DNA from: Eledone cirrhosa
Lineage: Eukaryota
Direction: 5' to 3'
Length of the DNA: 64,000 bases
NCBI GenBank assembly: GCA_964016885.1
Contig: OZ024747.1
Span: 74,586,001-74,650,000, forward strand
Numbering within the stretch: position 1 is the first letter of the stretch; every line of letters starts with the position of its first letter. Positions 36,683 to 54,260 of the stretch are shown piece after piece. Both the position numbers and the translations under genes were made by a program. Below the pieces are notes generated by a model, which ran no database searches, was not told the DNA's origin, and saw nothing but the letters and a program-made list of their open reading frames with translations.

Positions 36683-38110
36683 TATATATATGAATGTGTG
36701 CATGTACGTGTGTGCATGTATATGTATATATATATATATGTGCATATGTGCATGTACGTATGTGTGTATGTATATGTATGTATGTATATATATATATATA
36801 TATATATATACATATGTGCATGAACGTATGTATGTATATATATATGTATGTATGTATATAATCATGTATGTATAGATGTATGTACGTATGTAAGTATATA
36901 TGGATGGAAATGTATATGTACGTATGTGCGTATGTTTATATATGTGCATGTTCGTATGTATGTATGTATATATATGAATGTGTGCATGTACGTATGTGTG
37001 TATGTATATATATATATATGTATATGTGCATGTACGTATGTGTGTATGTATATGTATGTATATATATATATGTGCATGAACGTATGTGTGTATGTATATA
37101 TATATATATATATATATATATGTATGTATGTATATATGCATGTATGTATGTACGTATGTATGTAAGTGTATATGGATGGAAATGTATATGTGCGTATGTA
37201 TGTATATGTGCATGTACGTGTGTATGTATATATGAATGTGTGCTTGTACGTGTGTGCATGTATATGTATATATATATATATGCATATGTGCATGTACGTA
37301 TGTGTGTATGTATATATATATATATATATGTATGTATATAATCATGTATGTATGGATGTATGTACGTATATATGTAAGTATATATGGATGGAAATGTATA
37401 TGTACGTATGTGCGTATGTATGTTTATATATGTACATGTACGTATGTATGTATGTATTTATATATATGAATGTGTGCATGTACGTATGTGTGTATGTATA
37501 TATATATGTTGTTGTCGTTATTATTATTATTGCTATTATTATTATTATTATTATTATTGTTATTAATGTATGTGTGTATATATGTGTGAGTGTATGTGTA
37601 TGTATGTGTGTATGTATATATGTATGTATATATATATATATATATATATATATATATATATATATATATATATATTTCTTTTTTTTTTTTATTTATTTAT
37701 TATTATTATTATTATAATTATTTTTTTTTATTTTTTTTTTTCTTGTGCAATGGCCATACTCGATAACGAGGGGGCAGCCATCATCATGTATATATATATG
37801 TATATGTGCATGTACGTATGTGTGTATGTATATGTATATATATATATGTACATGAACGTATGTGTCTATGTATATATATATATATATATATGTATGTATG
37901 TATGTATATATACATGTATGTATGTACGTACGTATGTAAGTGTATATCGATGGAAATGTGCATGTACGTATGTATGTATATATGAATGTGTGCATGTATA
38001 TGTATATATATATATATGCATATGTGCATGTACGTATGTGTGTATGTATATGTATGTATATATATATATATATATATATATATATATATATATATATATA
38101 TATATATATA
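36683..38110. repeat. Complex higher-order microsatellite (TATG/TGCA/TACG) with a recurring aagtRtatatggatggaaatgtatatg landmark
   Basis: Landmark recurs at ~36890, 37163, 37376, 37938 and at 32681. Confidence 0.85.
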
Positions 38111-38662
38111 ATCTCCCAATAGGTTGAGATTAAATTTGGCGATATTTGGCTGCGCTTTCTAGCAGCAAGCCTACCCGCCGTAAGCAACCAATCACATTCT
38201 TTCTCTCTGGCTGGAACACAGCTACATAGCGATTTTTAGCCATTTTTTAATCTAATTTTGGCGGGATCGGATTGAAAAACTAGATGTCTGATTTTGAGTT
38301 TGTCTCCTGATGAATCGTAGCTCAGGACATTCCTATTATTTGGATGTCCAAAATAAGGAAGAAACCATGGTAGAGATATAATTACGGTATGTGCGCATTT
38401 CTTCTAAGTTTAATTTTACAACTAATTGTGTATGGTTGATGGTATATTTAGTCAGTTTCTACATGCTGTCGAAATGTTGGATAAATACTAGAACGGGGCC
38501 GCCGCGAAGAGGCTACGTTCGGTTATTTGTCGGTGATTTCCCCATAAGAGAATTTATTCTTATAGCTTGCTAGGATTGATTTTGTATATGGTTAATTATG
38601 CTAATTGGAAGAAGAAATAGTATATATTTAATATCTGATGATTCTAAAGACATGATTTATGA
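38109..38662 (+). mobile_element. ~550-bp (TA)n-flanked hammerhead module; homologue at 53709-54260 (minus)
   Basis: Collinear similarity over the whole length (ataatctccc..aggttgagat..ggctgcgctttctagca..ccatggtagag..ggttaattatgctaattgg..gacatg.tttatgat). Confidence 0.88.
38301..38378 (+). ncRNA. Type I hammerhead ribozyme (base of stem II degraded)
   Basis: UGUCUC/GAGAUA; CUGAUGA 38307-38313; apical hairpin ggacau(u)cc/ggaugucc; GAAA; ACCAUGGU palindrome; GUA site. Confidence 0.78.
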
Positions 38663-38689
38663 TATATATATATATATATATATATATAT

Positions 38690-39510
38690 ATAGTAATAAT
38701 AATAAATTTGAAGACTAAAATCCAAAGAGGGCTCGATAAGGATAAATATATATCAAATATATAAGAACCGTAGAGCAAATATTTATTAAAATAACAGATT
38801 AAAGTTTAAGCAAAGAATCGCTGCTTTCACCCTTAACGGGATCTTCTGAAACTAAAAAAATTAATCTGTGAACGCAAAAGTGAATATTTCAAAAAACGTT
38901 GCAATCGGAGGAAGACAGGAAGACGATACTTTGGTTCGTGGAAACGTTCCCTGGCAAAGAACGGAAAAAAATGAAGATAATACGTCATTATTTGAAGCAG
39001 TGAAAACAATTACACGCAAAGACAAAACCACGTTTATGGTATAAATGAAGACGTAGACTAATATTATACTAGGTGGTTCGTGGAGACGTTCCCTGGCAAA
39101 GAACGAAAAAAAACAAAGATAATACTGAAGTTGTTACGACTTCAGTTATACCCTAAACGTGGTTTTGTCTTTGCGTGTAATTGTTTTCACCGCTCCAAAT
39201 AATGACGTATTATCTTCGTTTTTTTTTTTTTTCGTTCTTTACCAGGGAACGTTTCCACGAACCAAAGTATCGTCTTCCTGTCTTCCTTCGGTTGCAACGT
39301 TTTTCGAAATATTTACTTTTGCGTTCACAGATTGATTTTTTTTTATTTCAGAAGGTCCCGTTAAGGGTGAAAGCAACGATTCTTTGCTTAAACTTTAATC
39401 TGTTATTTTAATAAATATTTGGTCTACGGTTCTTATATATTTGATATATATTTATCCTTATTGAGCCCTCTTTGAATTTTAGTCTTCAAATTTATTATTA
39501 TTACTATATA
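38690..39510. mobile_element. Long palindromic element (~365-bp arms) flanked by (TA)n, with a hammerhead variant in each arm
   Basis: 38690-39057 is the reverse complement of ~39136-39510 at high identity; the spacer holds a direct copy of 38932-38983. Confidence 0.92.
38803..38853 (-). ncRNA. Hammerhead ribozyme variant with CAGAAGA core; mirror copy at 39345-39394 (+)
   Basis: AGUUU/AAACU stem I; CAGAAGA; CCC-GUUAA-GGG stem II; GAAA; AGCAG../..UUGCU stem III; CUU site. Confidence 0.6.
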
Positions 39511-40598
39511 TATATATATATATATGGTCTTTTGTTTTGTGTGTCTTGTGTTGCTGCCGGGTTGAATGTCCAAATGATCTAGTGACCGTCTGGTGGGTCT
39601 TATTTTGGTGTTTTACATCAGATGACATAAGTACAGTCATGAGTTACGATCAATCATGAGTTACGATCAAATAACCGTATATGTATTGGACACAATATTA
39701 CAAGATTATATATACATACACATATAAATATATATACGTACACATACAGTTAGATATATAGTTGCTGCTACACAACCACACACTTTCACATACAGACATT
39801 CACTAATTTTAGATATACTGTTACACACAAATACGAACGTAAACAGACATTAAAATATTCTTCACACAATCGAGACACGAAGACGTTGTAAAGGGATTTT
39901 ATATTTGATCGTAGAGACAGTGACGTTTCAGATCTTCCATAATTGCACATGCGGAACCGAAAGGTGTGTGTGTTTACACCAGGCCTCAAATCGATGTTAT
40001 TTATACTATGTCCTATTCTGACCCGTAACTTAACAGTACAATAGTTAAAGATTGATAAAATACACAGTTAGATAGATAGACAATTGAGACAGACAAACGT
40101 ACATTCATATAGACTGACACGCAGACACACATATATATATAGAGAGAGAGAGAGAGTGACGCAGCAGATATATATTTAGACAGAGCGAAAGACAGACAGA
40201 TATAAAGAGAGAGGGACAGACAGACAGACAGACAGCTTAGGATTAATTCATCTCCCATTGTGAAAGTTGCATCTATTTTAGAAGTAGTAACCATCTTCAT
40301 TAATTGTTACTAACGGAAGAGACTTGAGTTTCACTTAGACTAAACCAACATGGTTGACGAATATGAAGTTGTCTGTTGGTGTTGTTAAATTTACTGCCGC
40401 CGCCATCACTGTTCCAACTGCTGTTTGCAACTGATGTTCACGTTGTTGTTGTCATCGCTATTGTTTCTTTTTTTCTCTCTTCTTTTTTTTAACTTCACTA
40501 CTTTGTATAATGGCAGATTGTTAATTGAGGCTGACATGTGATGACAAGCTTACTGTATTATGTCGATTCTGCAGCAATGTTATTCATTATTATTAGCA

Positions 40599-52891: not shown

Positions 52892-52957
52892 TATTTTGTC
52901 TGATGAAGGCATAGCATATTGTTAATATGATATCCCCGAAATATATATAATGAAATA
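52892..52957 (+). ncRNA. Type I hammerhead ribozyme in a ~200-bp island (52800-53000)
   Basis: UAUUUUGU/AUGAAAUA; CUGAUGA 52900-52906; stem II with cauauu/aauaug; GAAA; AUAUAUAU palindrome; AUA site. Confidence 0.8.
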
Positions 52958-53090
52958 GATATGGTTTTATAAATATAGTTTTCCATTTATTTAATATTGT
53001 ATATATGCATATATATATATATATGCATATATATATATATATATGCATATATATATATATGCATATATATATATGCATATATGTATATAT

Positions 53091-53407
53091 ATATTGTTAT
53101 ACTTTGGGAGGGTCATGTTGCCAATAAGAAACACACGCACCAGTTGCTTTCACTTCAATTTATTATATATTTATAAATTTATAAATTTACAAATCTACAA
53201 ACTTATAAATTTCTGGTTGGTTGGTTGGTTTCCACAACCAGATAGTTGTTTTATATATAGTCATGTCCTTTCGTCACACACTCTGTGACCTCTTCAGTGA
53301 CTGGGATTCCTTTCTTGTTTCTGTGCCTTTCCTTTCTTCTGAAGTGAAAGCAACTGGTACGTGTGTTTCTTATTGGCAACATGACCCCTCCCAAAGTATA
53401 ACAATAT
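53091..53407. mobile_element. Element with ~67-bp inverted ends and an internal atypical hammerhead (53259-53302, minus); related end at 8033-8060
   Basis: 53091-53157 vs 53340-53407; AGUCA-CUGAAGA-gucaca/ugugac-GAAA-ggaca-UGACU lacks the canonical UH. Confidence 0.8.
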
Positions 53408-53708
53408 CGGTTTCAACACACGATTTCAGATAAAGAATCTTGCTAAACAAATTCAGAACGAAATGTATATATATATATATGCATATATGTATATATATAT
53501 ATATGCATATATATATATGCATATATGTATATATATATATATGAATATATATATATATGCATATATATATATATATATATATGCATATATATATATATAT
53601 GCATATATGTATATATATATATACATGCATATATATATATGCATATATATATATATATATATATATATATATATATATATATATATATATATATATATGC
53701 ATATATGT

Positions 53709-54260
53709 ATCATAAAACATGTCTATAGAATCACCAGATAAAATATATACCGTTTCCTCTCCCAATTAGCATAATTAACCATATAAATAATCGATTAGAC
53801 CAAGCTATAAGAATAAAGGCTTCTATGAAGAAATTTCCGACAAATAACCGAAAGCAGCCCTTCGCGACGGTTGCCACGGAGTATTTATCGAGTATTTAGA
53901 CAGCGTGTATTAATCGACCAGATATACAGTTAATTAAACAGAATTAGATGTAAAATAAACTAGGAGAAAAGTGAACATATTTAGTTACCTCTACCATGGT
54001 TTCGTCCGCATTTTAAGATATCCGATAACATTGGACATCTGGAGCACCGGACTCTTCAGAAGTTAGCTCAAATTTAAACAATCAATATTCCAAAGTGATC
54101 GCGCCAAGAATACATTCAAAAATGGCTAAGAATCGTGAAGTGGCAGCGGTCATGTTAGAAAGAATGTGATTAGTTGCTTACGGCTGGTGGCCTTTTGCTA
54201 GAAAGCGCAGCCCAATACAGCCAAAATTGTATCTCAACCTAACGGGAGATTATTACATAT
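53709..54260 (-). mobile_element. Homologue of the 38109-38662 module; partial direct repeat of its end at 54372-54399
   Basis: Collinear similarity; tcataaaacatgtct.tagaatcacca occurs twice. Confidence 0.88.
53983..54068 (-). ncRNA. Type I hammerhead ribozyme
   Basis: CUGAAGA; GUCCG/CGGAC stem II with apical agaugucc/ggauaucu; GAAA; ACCAUGGU; GUA site; 9-bp stem I with 2 mismatches. Confidence 0.8.

What the first reader, a model, noticed from the sequence alone, without database searches (positions are those of the whole stretch)
38109..54260. Two diverged ~550-bp modules share both boundaries and a covarying extended-stem-II hammerhead
Seen: 38109-38662(+) and 53709-54260(-) align end to end, both starting at ataatctccc and ending at gacatg.tttatgat beside (TA)n, with no ORF. 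Stem I (UGUCUC/GAGAUA vs AGCUAACUU/GAGGUAACU) and the apical hairpin (ggacau.cc/ggaugucc vs agaugucc/ggauaucu) differ in sequence but still pair. Inference: a shared 5' boundary is not expected from random 5' truncation, so this may be a defined-length non-autonomous ribozyme element or a solo pseudo-LTR under structural selection.
Basis: partly seen in the sequence, partly recalled or inferred. Interest (0 to 1): 0.72.

Follow-up and report, generated by a model that had tools for sequence, protein, structure and literature searches.

The report
Two-armed, pseudoknotted hammerhead retrozyme family
The two modules are shortened copies of a roughly 660-base, protein-free repeat found thousands of times in this animal genome, which carries a predicted self-cutting hammerhead RNA and is likely pasted into TA microsatellites by a borrowed Penelope-type enzyme; the shared start point is not real, but back-to-back copies almost always end at two different fixed points, a testable clue to how such elements insert.

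Summary
The two copies are real (74.7% identical, unrelated flanks) and hold a type I hammerhead motif. The shared 5' boundary is wrong. Copy B runs about 140 bp further upstream, and genome-wide the sequence continues upstream 2106 times against 77 joins to (AT)n (controls 21 and 55). The true unit is about 640-720 bp, with over 2,600 copies in many subfamilies, found as 5'-truncated monomers, partial tandems and arrays in (TA)n. 3' ends are fixed at two points about 110 nt apart. In head-to-head insertions one arm ends at each point (49 of 49 classifiable pairs among 61; 35 of 36 in a second, overlapping sample). That matches the two internal reverse-transcription start sites of Penelope-like elements. 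The hammerhead has a long stem II whose internal loop pairs with the strand before stem I, with compensatory changes. Copy A's stem II is damaged. No autonomous partner with a matching end was found; cleavage and circles are untested. Verdict: a non-LTR retrozyme (non-autonomous Penelope-type element), a known kind with a variant ribozyme. This scan noted the same two-arm pattern before in other repeat families of this genome.

The parts
38109..38662 (+). Copy A: single 5'-truncated arm ending at 3' point E1 (TTTATGA|(TA)n), set in (TA)n
38296..38378 (+). Type I hammerhead motif of copy A (CUGAUGA 38307-38313, GAAA 38361-38364, predicted cut after 38372); stem II base pairs only 3 of 5, so likely impaired
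   Evidence: sequence
38296..38300 (+). 5' strand (GAGUU) of the predicted pseudoknot in copy A
38319..38323 (+). 3' strand (AGCUC) of the predicted pseudoknot, in the internal loop of stem II of copy A
53709..54260 (-).
53983..54069 (-). Type I hammerhead motif of copy B (GAGC 54069-54066, CUGAAGA 54059-54053, stem II GUCCG/CGGAC intact, loop GCUC 54045-54042, predicted cut after 53992)
   Evidence: sequence
54261..54371 (-).
54372..54399 (-). Last ~28 bp of an upstream unit: the true 5'-truncation point of insertion B (partial tandem)
38662..38692 (.). (AT)n target tract at the 3' end of copy A
48245..57087 (.). Long TA-rich tract that holds copy B and other insertions

Best explanation
These are 5'-truncated copies of a ~660-bp non-coding, hammerhead-bearing repeat (a non-LTR retrozyme) that is likely inserted by target-primed reverse transcription using the protein of an autonomous Penelope-like element. 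Shown: fixed 3' ends at two points (E1 and E2, ~110 nt apart), scattered 5' ends, (TA)n targets, partial tandems, and head-to-head arms with one E1 and one tail-bearing end. Inferred: the endonuclease cuts both strands of a (TA)n tract; two reverse transcriptases, probably a dimer, extend the two DNA ends, one from E1 and one from E2, helped by a few bases of AT complementarity; the two cDNAs stop at random and are joined at their far ends, or one arm is lost. The template is likely uncut multimer or circular RNA, because arms read straight through the ribozyme cut site. The hammerhead, likely braced by a pseudoknot, would cut transcripts into monomers that a host ligase could circularise. Copy A likely has an impaired ribozyme.
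For: Copy number: 2661 exact core motifs, control 1; 4492, control 317, with a looser pattern. E1|(AT)n joins: 2580, control 0. Unit 641-775 bp in 24 spacings; 664-bp 9-mer. Of 122 arms, 66 end at E1, 41 run through the tail, 15 end elsewhere. Head-to-head pairs: 28 of 28 classifiable among 35 (p=3.7e-9 against 0.5); 49 of 49 among 61 over all loci; 35 of 36 among 40 in an E1-anchored sample, 13 of them at new loci. Autonomous Penelope-like elements of this genome show the same pattern in 6 of 7 pairs, carry RT plus a C-terminal endonuclease and end in (TA)n. Two internal start sites that make the tail were shown in vitro for a Penelope-like element (PMC11167929). 48 of 96 E1 arms cross the predicted cut site; 12 of 107 arms span two or more. 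The two arms of a pair differ by a median 2.7% against 20.6% to other copies; 29 of 31 rank in the nearest 5%. Hammerhead pairing 90.1% against 83.1% shuffled, 135 against 62 compensatory cells, 0 of 500 shuffles.
Against: No autonomous element with a homologous end was found in 54 loci of two young families or in 30 GIY-YIG loci; the two hits look like neighbouring insertions. So the donor enzyme is inferred from the footprint alone. Cleavage and circles are untested. The base pair of stem II next to the core is unpaired in 32 of 67 copies. Only 2 of 96 arms begin near the cut site. Adjacent tandem units are identical in 0 of 55 cases and arms in 1 of 31; shared private variants between arms (198) barely exceed a nearest-neighbour control (173), so a single RNA molecule as template is not shown. 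Long arrays carry shared variants private to the array, pointing to later DNA-level turnover rather than one rolling-circle pass. Circular monomers fold clearly better than shuffles in only 1 of 4 (z -3.0, -0.6, -1.5, -1.3). One E1-E1 pair was seen, with (AT)n between its arms. Covariation counts sequences, not independent events.
Confidence: 0.82

Rival explanations
1. The units are only the 5'-truncated ends (pseudo-LTR plus tail) of an autonomous Penelope-like element that I did not sample, with no independent non-autonomous family.
For: The end architecture is the same as for autonomous elements of this genome. The genome holds many endonuclease families that were only partly sampled.
Against: Arms that run past the tail continue into another unit, not into coding sequence: 58 multi-unit arms, 2106 read-throughs. 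No RT/EN match sits at a consistent 5' junction in loci L001-L144 or L199-L218. No homology to sampled element ends.
Confidence: 0.08
2. The element is Penelope-driven, but its template is a linear, uncut read-through transcript of a tandem locus, and the hammerhead plays little part in mobility.
For: In vitro, ribozyme-dead Penelope-like RNA inserted normally and uncut RNA was the main substrate (PMC11167929). Few arms start at the cut site (2 of 96). The stem II base pair is often broken. Tandem units are never identical.
Against: The fold is kept with compensatory changes across subfamilies up to 36% apart, which is hard to explain if it does nothing. This rival shares most of the best explanation and differs only in the RNA form.
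Confidence: 0.35
3. The second arm arises by fold-back copying of the first cDNA (or L1-type twin priming), not by a second priming at another RNA site.
For: The arms are close relatives, and in some pairs the 5' ends lie close together.
Against: In pairs such as L074 (125-576 against 462-636) and L134 (196-576 against 323-636) neither arm contains the other. The arms overlap in sequence, which classical twin priming on one linear RNA (recalled) does not give.
Confidence: 0.06
4. A microsatellite-associated DNA element (Helitron-derived or MITE-like) or a satellite with a chance hammerhead-like motif.
For: Internal (CA)n(TA)n tract; arrays of 9 and about 45 units with DNA-level turnover. Rfam finds no hammerhead.
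Against: Fixed 3' ends with scattered 5' ends, two-arm insertions and a covarying hammerhead are retro-type features. No terminal inverted repeats bound the unit.
Confidence: 0.03

Closest known systems
Metazoan non-LTR retrozymes (Cervera and de la Pena 2020, PMC7229834, Results parts 1-2 of 3 and Discussion read; Li, Clavereau and Pollet 2026, bioRxiv 10.64898/2026.07.22.740005, parts 1-3 of 5 read)
   Same: Non-coding tandem or monomeric repeat, one type I hammerhead per unit, GC about 35%, coexisting with Penelope-like elements. A 2-bp stem III and a mismatch at the base of stem II recall axolotl HHR_Amex2.
   Different: About 660 bp, against 170-400 nt in the 2020 paper (inside the 51-972 bp range of the 2026 preprint). 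Two fixed 3' ends, (TA)n targeting and two-arm insertions are not described in the parts read. Expression and circles are not shown here.
EN+ Penelope-like elements and their insertion footprint (Craig et al. 2021, PMC8557442, passages and section 6 read; Frangieh et al. 2024, PMC11167929, parts 1-2 of 4 read)
   Same: 5' truncation, partial tandems, inverted 5'-truncated copy, a tail at one end only, (TA)n targets, two internal start sites that define the tail.
   Different: No ORF; tail about 110 nt rather than 30-40; AT complementarity at both start points, whereas the anole element starts at a site not homologous to the target; strict one-site-per-arm pairing is not stated in the parts read.
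Non-autonomous Chlamys derivatives such as MRC1 (PMC8557442, passage read)
   Same: Non-coding, pseudo-LTRs and head-to-tail multimers, driven by a Penelope-like element.
   Different: Those generally share 3' sequence with an autonomous family, and most Chlamys lack hammerheads; here a hammerhead is present and no matching partner was found.
[quoted passage not shown]
   Same: An internal loop on an extended helix, capped by a hairpin, base-pairs with the other arm.
   Different: Here the ribozyme is type I, the extension and loop are on helix II, and the partner is the strand 5' of helix I. In the PK hammerhead the pseudoknot replaces helix II; here helix II is kept.

Membership tests
Non-LTR retrozyme | Repeat unit occurring in tandem with a type I hammerhead in each unit | tested here: met
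   9-mer of 664 bp with the core motif in every unit; 24 hammerhead-to-hammerhead spacings of 641-775 bp
Non-LTR retrozyme | No protein-coding capacity, GC below 50% | tested here: met
   GC 0.34-0.35 in 4 units
Non-LTR retrozyme | Monomer of about 170-400 nt (2020 definition) | tested here: not met
   641-775 bp; but inside the 51-972 bp range of the 2026 preprint, so size is not treated as defining
Non-LTR retrozyme | Self-cleavage and expression as linear and circular RNA | not testable with these tools
   needs RNA data or a bench assay
Non-LTR retrozyme | Stable, highly self-paired monomer | tested here: inconclusive
   copy B z -3.08; circular monomers z -3.0, -0.6, -1.5, -1.3; consensus rod 3' of the ribozyme
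Penelope-type insertion (non-autonomous) | Fixed 3' ends, scattered 5' truncation, partial tandems | tested here: met
Penelope-type insertion (non-autonomous) | Inverted 5'-truncated copy and a tail at one end only | tested here: met
   49 of 49 classifiable pairs among 61; 35 of 36 among 40
Penelope-type insertion (non-autonomous) | 3' or pseudo-LTR homology to an autonomous family in the same genome | tested here: inconclusive
   none in 84 sampled loci of a few families; most families not sampled
Autonomous Penelope-like element | ORF with RT and GIY-YIG endonuclease | tested here: not met
Type I hammerhead ribozyme | CUGANGA, GAAA and NUH core with three helices in type I order | tested here: met
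   85 of 102 motif hits have CUGA(A/U)GA at the right distance; helices I and II pair 98.7% and 85.4%. Helix III is invariant because the search pattern fixed it, so it is uninformative.
Type I hammerhead ribozyme | Tertiary contact between helices I and II | tested here: met
   predicted 5-bp pseudoknot, 90.4% paired, 42 compensatory cells against 19.9 shuffled; also picked by RNAalifold without guidance. A prediction, not a probed structure.
Type I hammerhead ribozyme | Match to an Rfam hammerhead model | tested here: not met
   0 matches at E<=10 for each copy; the long stem II likely defeats the models
Type I hammerhead ribozyme | Site-specific self-cleavage | not testable with these tools
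   bench assay needed

The most novel reading that the evidence does not exclude
A Penelope-type protein dimer binds one circular 660-nt retrozyme RNA and extends both ends of a cut (TA)n tract from two different start sites on that same circle, one subunit per site. A pseudoknot-braced type I hammerhead that Rfam misses makes the circle, and a long-range helix places it next to the first start site. This would be direct genomic evidence for the proposed circle-templated spread of animal retrozymes and for how Penelope-like elements complete both strands.
Probability: 0.35. Interest if true: 0.7.

Novelty: new variant of a known kind. Interest (0 to 1): 0.45.

Why it matters
Which enzyme moves animal retrozymes, and how Penelope-like elements finish both strands of an insertion, are stated as open in the papers read. 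A short non-coding family with thousands of copies and a near-strict rule (one arm per start site) gives a natural dataset and a small substrate for an in vitro test. The hammerhead variant is missed by Rfam, so similar elements are probably undercounted.

Tried and rejected
Shared 5' boundary: rejected. The 11 of 96 and 12 of 106 starts at profile positions up to 12 are, in the junctions I read, stops inside the TA-rich tail, a stretch of about 100 nt that the profile does not resolve; I do not count them as a pile-up. Segmental duplication: rejected. Rfam on the whole window listed only microsatellite-driven and other sub-threshold matches (150 of 535 shown); on each copy alone, nothing. Pfam found no family in the autonomous ORF; it was identified by motifs read in the translation and by homologues. 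Autonomous partner: three genome searches found two young families and several endonuclease families, none with a matching end. Sequencing runs: no RNA holder listed; the contigs of two runs were laid but cannot show starts, ends or expression. Long-range helix joining the strand before the ribozyme to the bases before E1: best of 243 candidate helices by compensatory cells, but weak against shuffles (59, 17 and 24 of 500), so a lead only. Long arrays as proof of rolling-circle copying: rejected. A first nearest-neighbour test mixed in independent neighbouring insertions and was redone on true pairs. One search translated the wrong frame and was not used. Target-site duplications cannot be read inside (TA)n. 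Paper searches found no description of this family, of this hammerhead layout, or of a strict one-site-per-arm rule; subscription papers and Repbase were not searchable, and no supplements were opened, so an earlier description may exist.
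Full report
Observation. The two stretches align at 74.7% over 558 columns and their flanks share only simple repeats. Both end at GACATG.TTTATGAT beside (TA)n and neither holds a real ORF. Both carry CUGANGA, GAAA, the palindrome ACCAUGGU and a GUA cut triplet in type I order. Two parts of the observation fail. Copy B does not start at ATAATCTCCC: it continues through GTAAACCTTT, a (CA)n(TA)n tract, a ~110-bp spacer and the last ~28 bp of another unit, to about 54399. 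And the base of stem II pairs 5 of 5 in B but 3 of 5 in A; the units of a related 9-mer have C where A has G at 38317.

The family. The window lies in a 3.0-Gb animal genome. The closest database relative of a retroelement protein from it is an Octopus vulgaris protein at 68%, so the host is likely an octopod (inference). An exact 15-base core motif occurs 2661 times, control 1; a looser pattern 4492 times, control 317. Hammerhead-to-hammerhead spacings are 641-775 bp in 24 cases, and one array has nine 664-bp units. Among 87 near-complete pieces there are 27 clusters at an 8.5% cut, up to 36% apart; A and B fall in different clusters.

5' ends are scattered. In the first 100 motif hits on contig C1 (overlapping loci dropped), 3 of 106 arms start at profile 15-35. 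In the first 100 3'-end junctions on C1, 1 of 96 measurable arms does. Genome-wide, (AT)n joined to AATCTCCC occurs 77 times (control 55), while the unit's own upstream sequence precedes it 2106 times (control 21). The apparent boundary is where the TA-rich tail stops looking like flank.

3' ends are fixed at two points. Of 122 arms, 66 end at E1 (TTTATGAT|(AT)n), 41 run on through the tail (29 scored to E2, AACCTTT|ATAT; 12 scored as ending in the tail's microsatellite, several of which show a variant E2 by eye), and 15 end elsewhere. The E1 junction occurs 2580 times, control 0. Many insertions are two arms joined at their 5' ends. Of 35 such pairs in the motif-anchored sample, 28 have both ends classifiable and all 28 pair one E1 arm with one tail arm (p=3.7e-9 against 0.5). 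Over all loci then held, including top-hit loci that are not unbiased, it is 49 of 49 among 61 pairs. In the E1-anchored sample 40 of 100 have a partner: 35 tail, 1 E1, 4 unresolved; 13 of the 35 are at new loci, and the E1-E1 case has (AT)n between its arms. In pairs such as L074 and L134 neither arm contains the other, which argues against fold-back copying. Arms of a pair differ by a median 2.7% against 20.6% to other copies, and 29 of 31 rank in the nearest 5%; but shared private variants (198) barely exceed the control (173).

Link to Penelope-like elements. Craig et al. describe 5' truncation, partial tandems, an inverted copy, a tail at one end and (TA)n targets as marks of these elements (PMC8557442; passages and section 6). 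Frangieh et al. showed in vitro that an anole element cuts and extends both strands and starts reverse transcription at two internal sites whose interval is the tail, needs RNA 3' of those sites, and does not need ribozyme cleavage (PMC11167929; parts 1-2 of 4). This genome holds two young autonomous families, 65% identical in protein, with open frames up to about 1300 aa, a Cys-rich linker before a C-terminal endonuclease, minimal hammerhead motifs (read by eye) and (TA)n ends. Their inverted pairs are mixed in 6 of 7 cases, one of them beside copy B. The unit has no homologue in their ends or in 30 further endonuclease loci; the two profile hits look like neighbouring insertions. The donor is therefore inferred, not identified.

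Template. 48 of 96 E1 arms read through the predicted cut site and only 2 start within 283-295; 12 of 107 arms span two or more cut sites. So the template is uncut multimer or a circle, not a cut linear monomer. The data do not choose between these. Adjacent tandem units are identical in 0 of 55 cases (median 3.4% apart), which age alone could explain. The 9-mer has 18 variants shared among its units, nearly all absent or rare in 22 dispersed copies, and a longer array of roughly 45 units (partly read) looks the same. That points to later DNA-level turnover, so long arrays are not evidence for rolling-circle copying.

The ribozyme. I aligned 67 of the 85 motif hits with an intact CUGA(A/U)GA, mostly one per locus. 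The named structure pairs in 90.1% of cells against 83.1% shuffled, with 135 against 62 compensatory cells (0 of 500 shuffles). The two measures that count pairs or pair types do not stand out (35 and 195 of 500). Stem II has an internal loop and an apical hairpin. The loop's RCUC pairs with GAGY just 5' of stem I: one pair is C-G in 41 and U-A in 20, the next U-A in 24, G-C in 16, A-U in 6 and unpaired in 19. RNAalifold picked the same helix unprompted on 27 diverse units. These are sequence counts from related subfamilies, so the number of independent changes is small. The pair next to the core is unpaired in 32 of 67. Watson-Crick contacts between helices I and II are known (PMC7936874 passages; PMC10085705 passages; PMC6155905 passages; PMC11300833 part 1), but I did not find this type I layout in the searches. 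Rfam misses both copies.

Comparison. It fits the non-LTR retrozymes on tandem units, type I hammerhead, no ORF and low GC (PMC7229834; bioRxiv 10.64898/2026.07.22.740005; review PMC7761336 passages). It is longer than the 2020 examples, and expression as circles is untested. Those papers propose Penelope-like elements as the mobiliser; the footprint here supports that. Earlier notes of this scan report the same two-arm pattern and pseudoknotted hammerheads in other repeat families of this genome. I reached both results before reading those notes, and they are unchecked, so I count them as agreement, not support. A look-up by this sequence and one by place near the window returned nothing.

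Verdict. A real, abundant non-autonomous retroelement of a known kind with a variant hammerhead. The remaining interest is the strict one-start-site-per-arm rule and a ribozyme fold that Rfam misses. Interest 0.45.

Noticed in passing
window 53093-53464: Two-armed insertion of the 3' end of an autonomous Penelope-like family beside copy B: the minus arm (53340-53093) has a minimal hammerhead motif and no tail, the plus arm (53341-53464) ends with the tail. Same rule as the retrozyme.
   Followed up: yes
window 8036-9620 (-): 5'-truncated copy of a very young Penelope-like family (97-98% protein identity among top hits, 30,317 candidates) with a C-terminal endonuclease, a minimal hammerhead motif and a (TA)n end.
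   Followed up: partly
G000:C1:92985660-93016035 (L219, L220, L265): One arm of a head-to-head insertion has grown into an array of roughly 45 units (about 2 kb not read) ending at E1, with mosaic variants: a retrozyme turning into a satellite.
   Followed up: partly
L199-L217: Other subfamilies have a longer stem III and GUUCG/CGAAC in stem II, while the subfamilies of the window copies have a 2-bp palindromic stem III, hinting at a shift between monomer and dimer cleavage.
   Followed up: no
alignment A3 columns 223-227 with 652-656: Possible long-range helix (UGUCY/RGACA) that brings the ribozyme next to E1; 10 compensatory cells at one pair but weak against shuffles.
   Followed up: partly
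L234 and L239: Two arms begin at or within a base or two of the predicted ribozyme cut site; too few to separate from chance.
   Followed up: partly
window 32752-32963 with 33495-33706; 10288-10467 with 10772-10951: Two near-perfect inverted pairs (212 bp at 100%, 180 bp at 99%), possibly young two-armed insertions or terminal repeats of other families.
   Followed up: no
window 5264-5439, 25542-25666, 40597-40928, 42572-42949, 57606-57751: Another short repeat family of about 180 bp, with tandem and inverted partial copies.
   Followed up: no
window 2-1678 (-): 559-aa open frame whose start (GSINARGL...) looks like the AP-type endonuclease of a LINE element; the motif is recalled, not tested.
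   Followed up: no
G000:C1:15897269-16265191: Cluster of 12 hits to the loose hammerhead pattern with a different sequence context; may be another repeat or chance.
   Followed up: no
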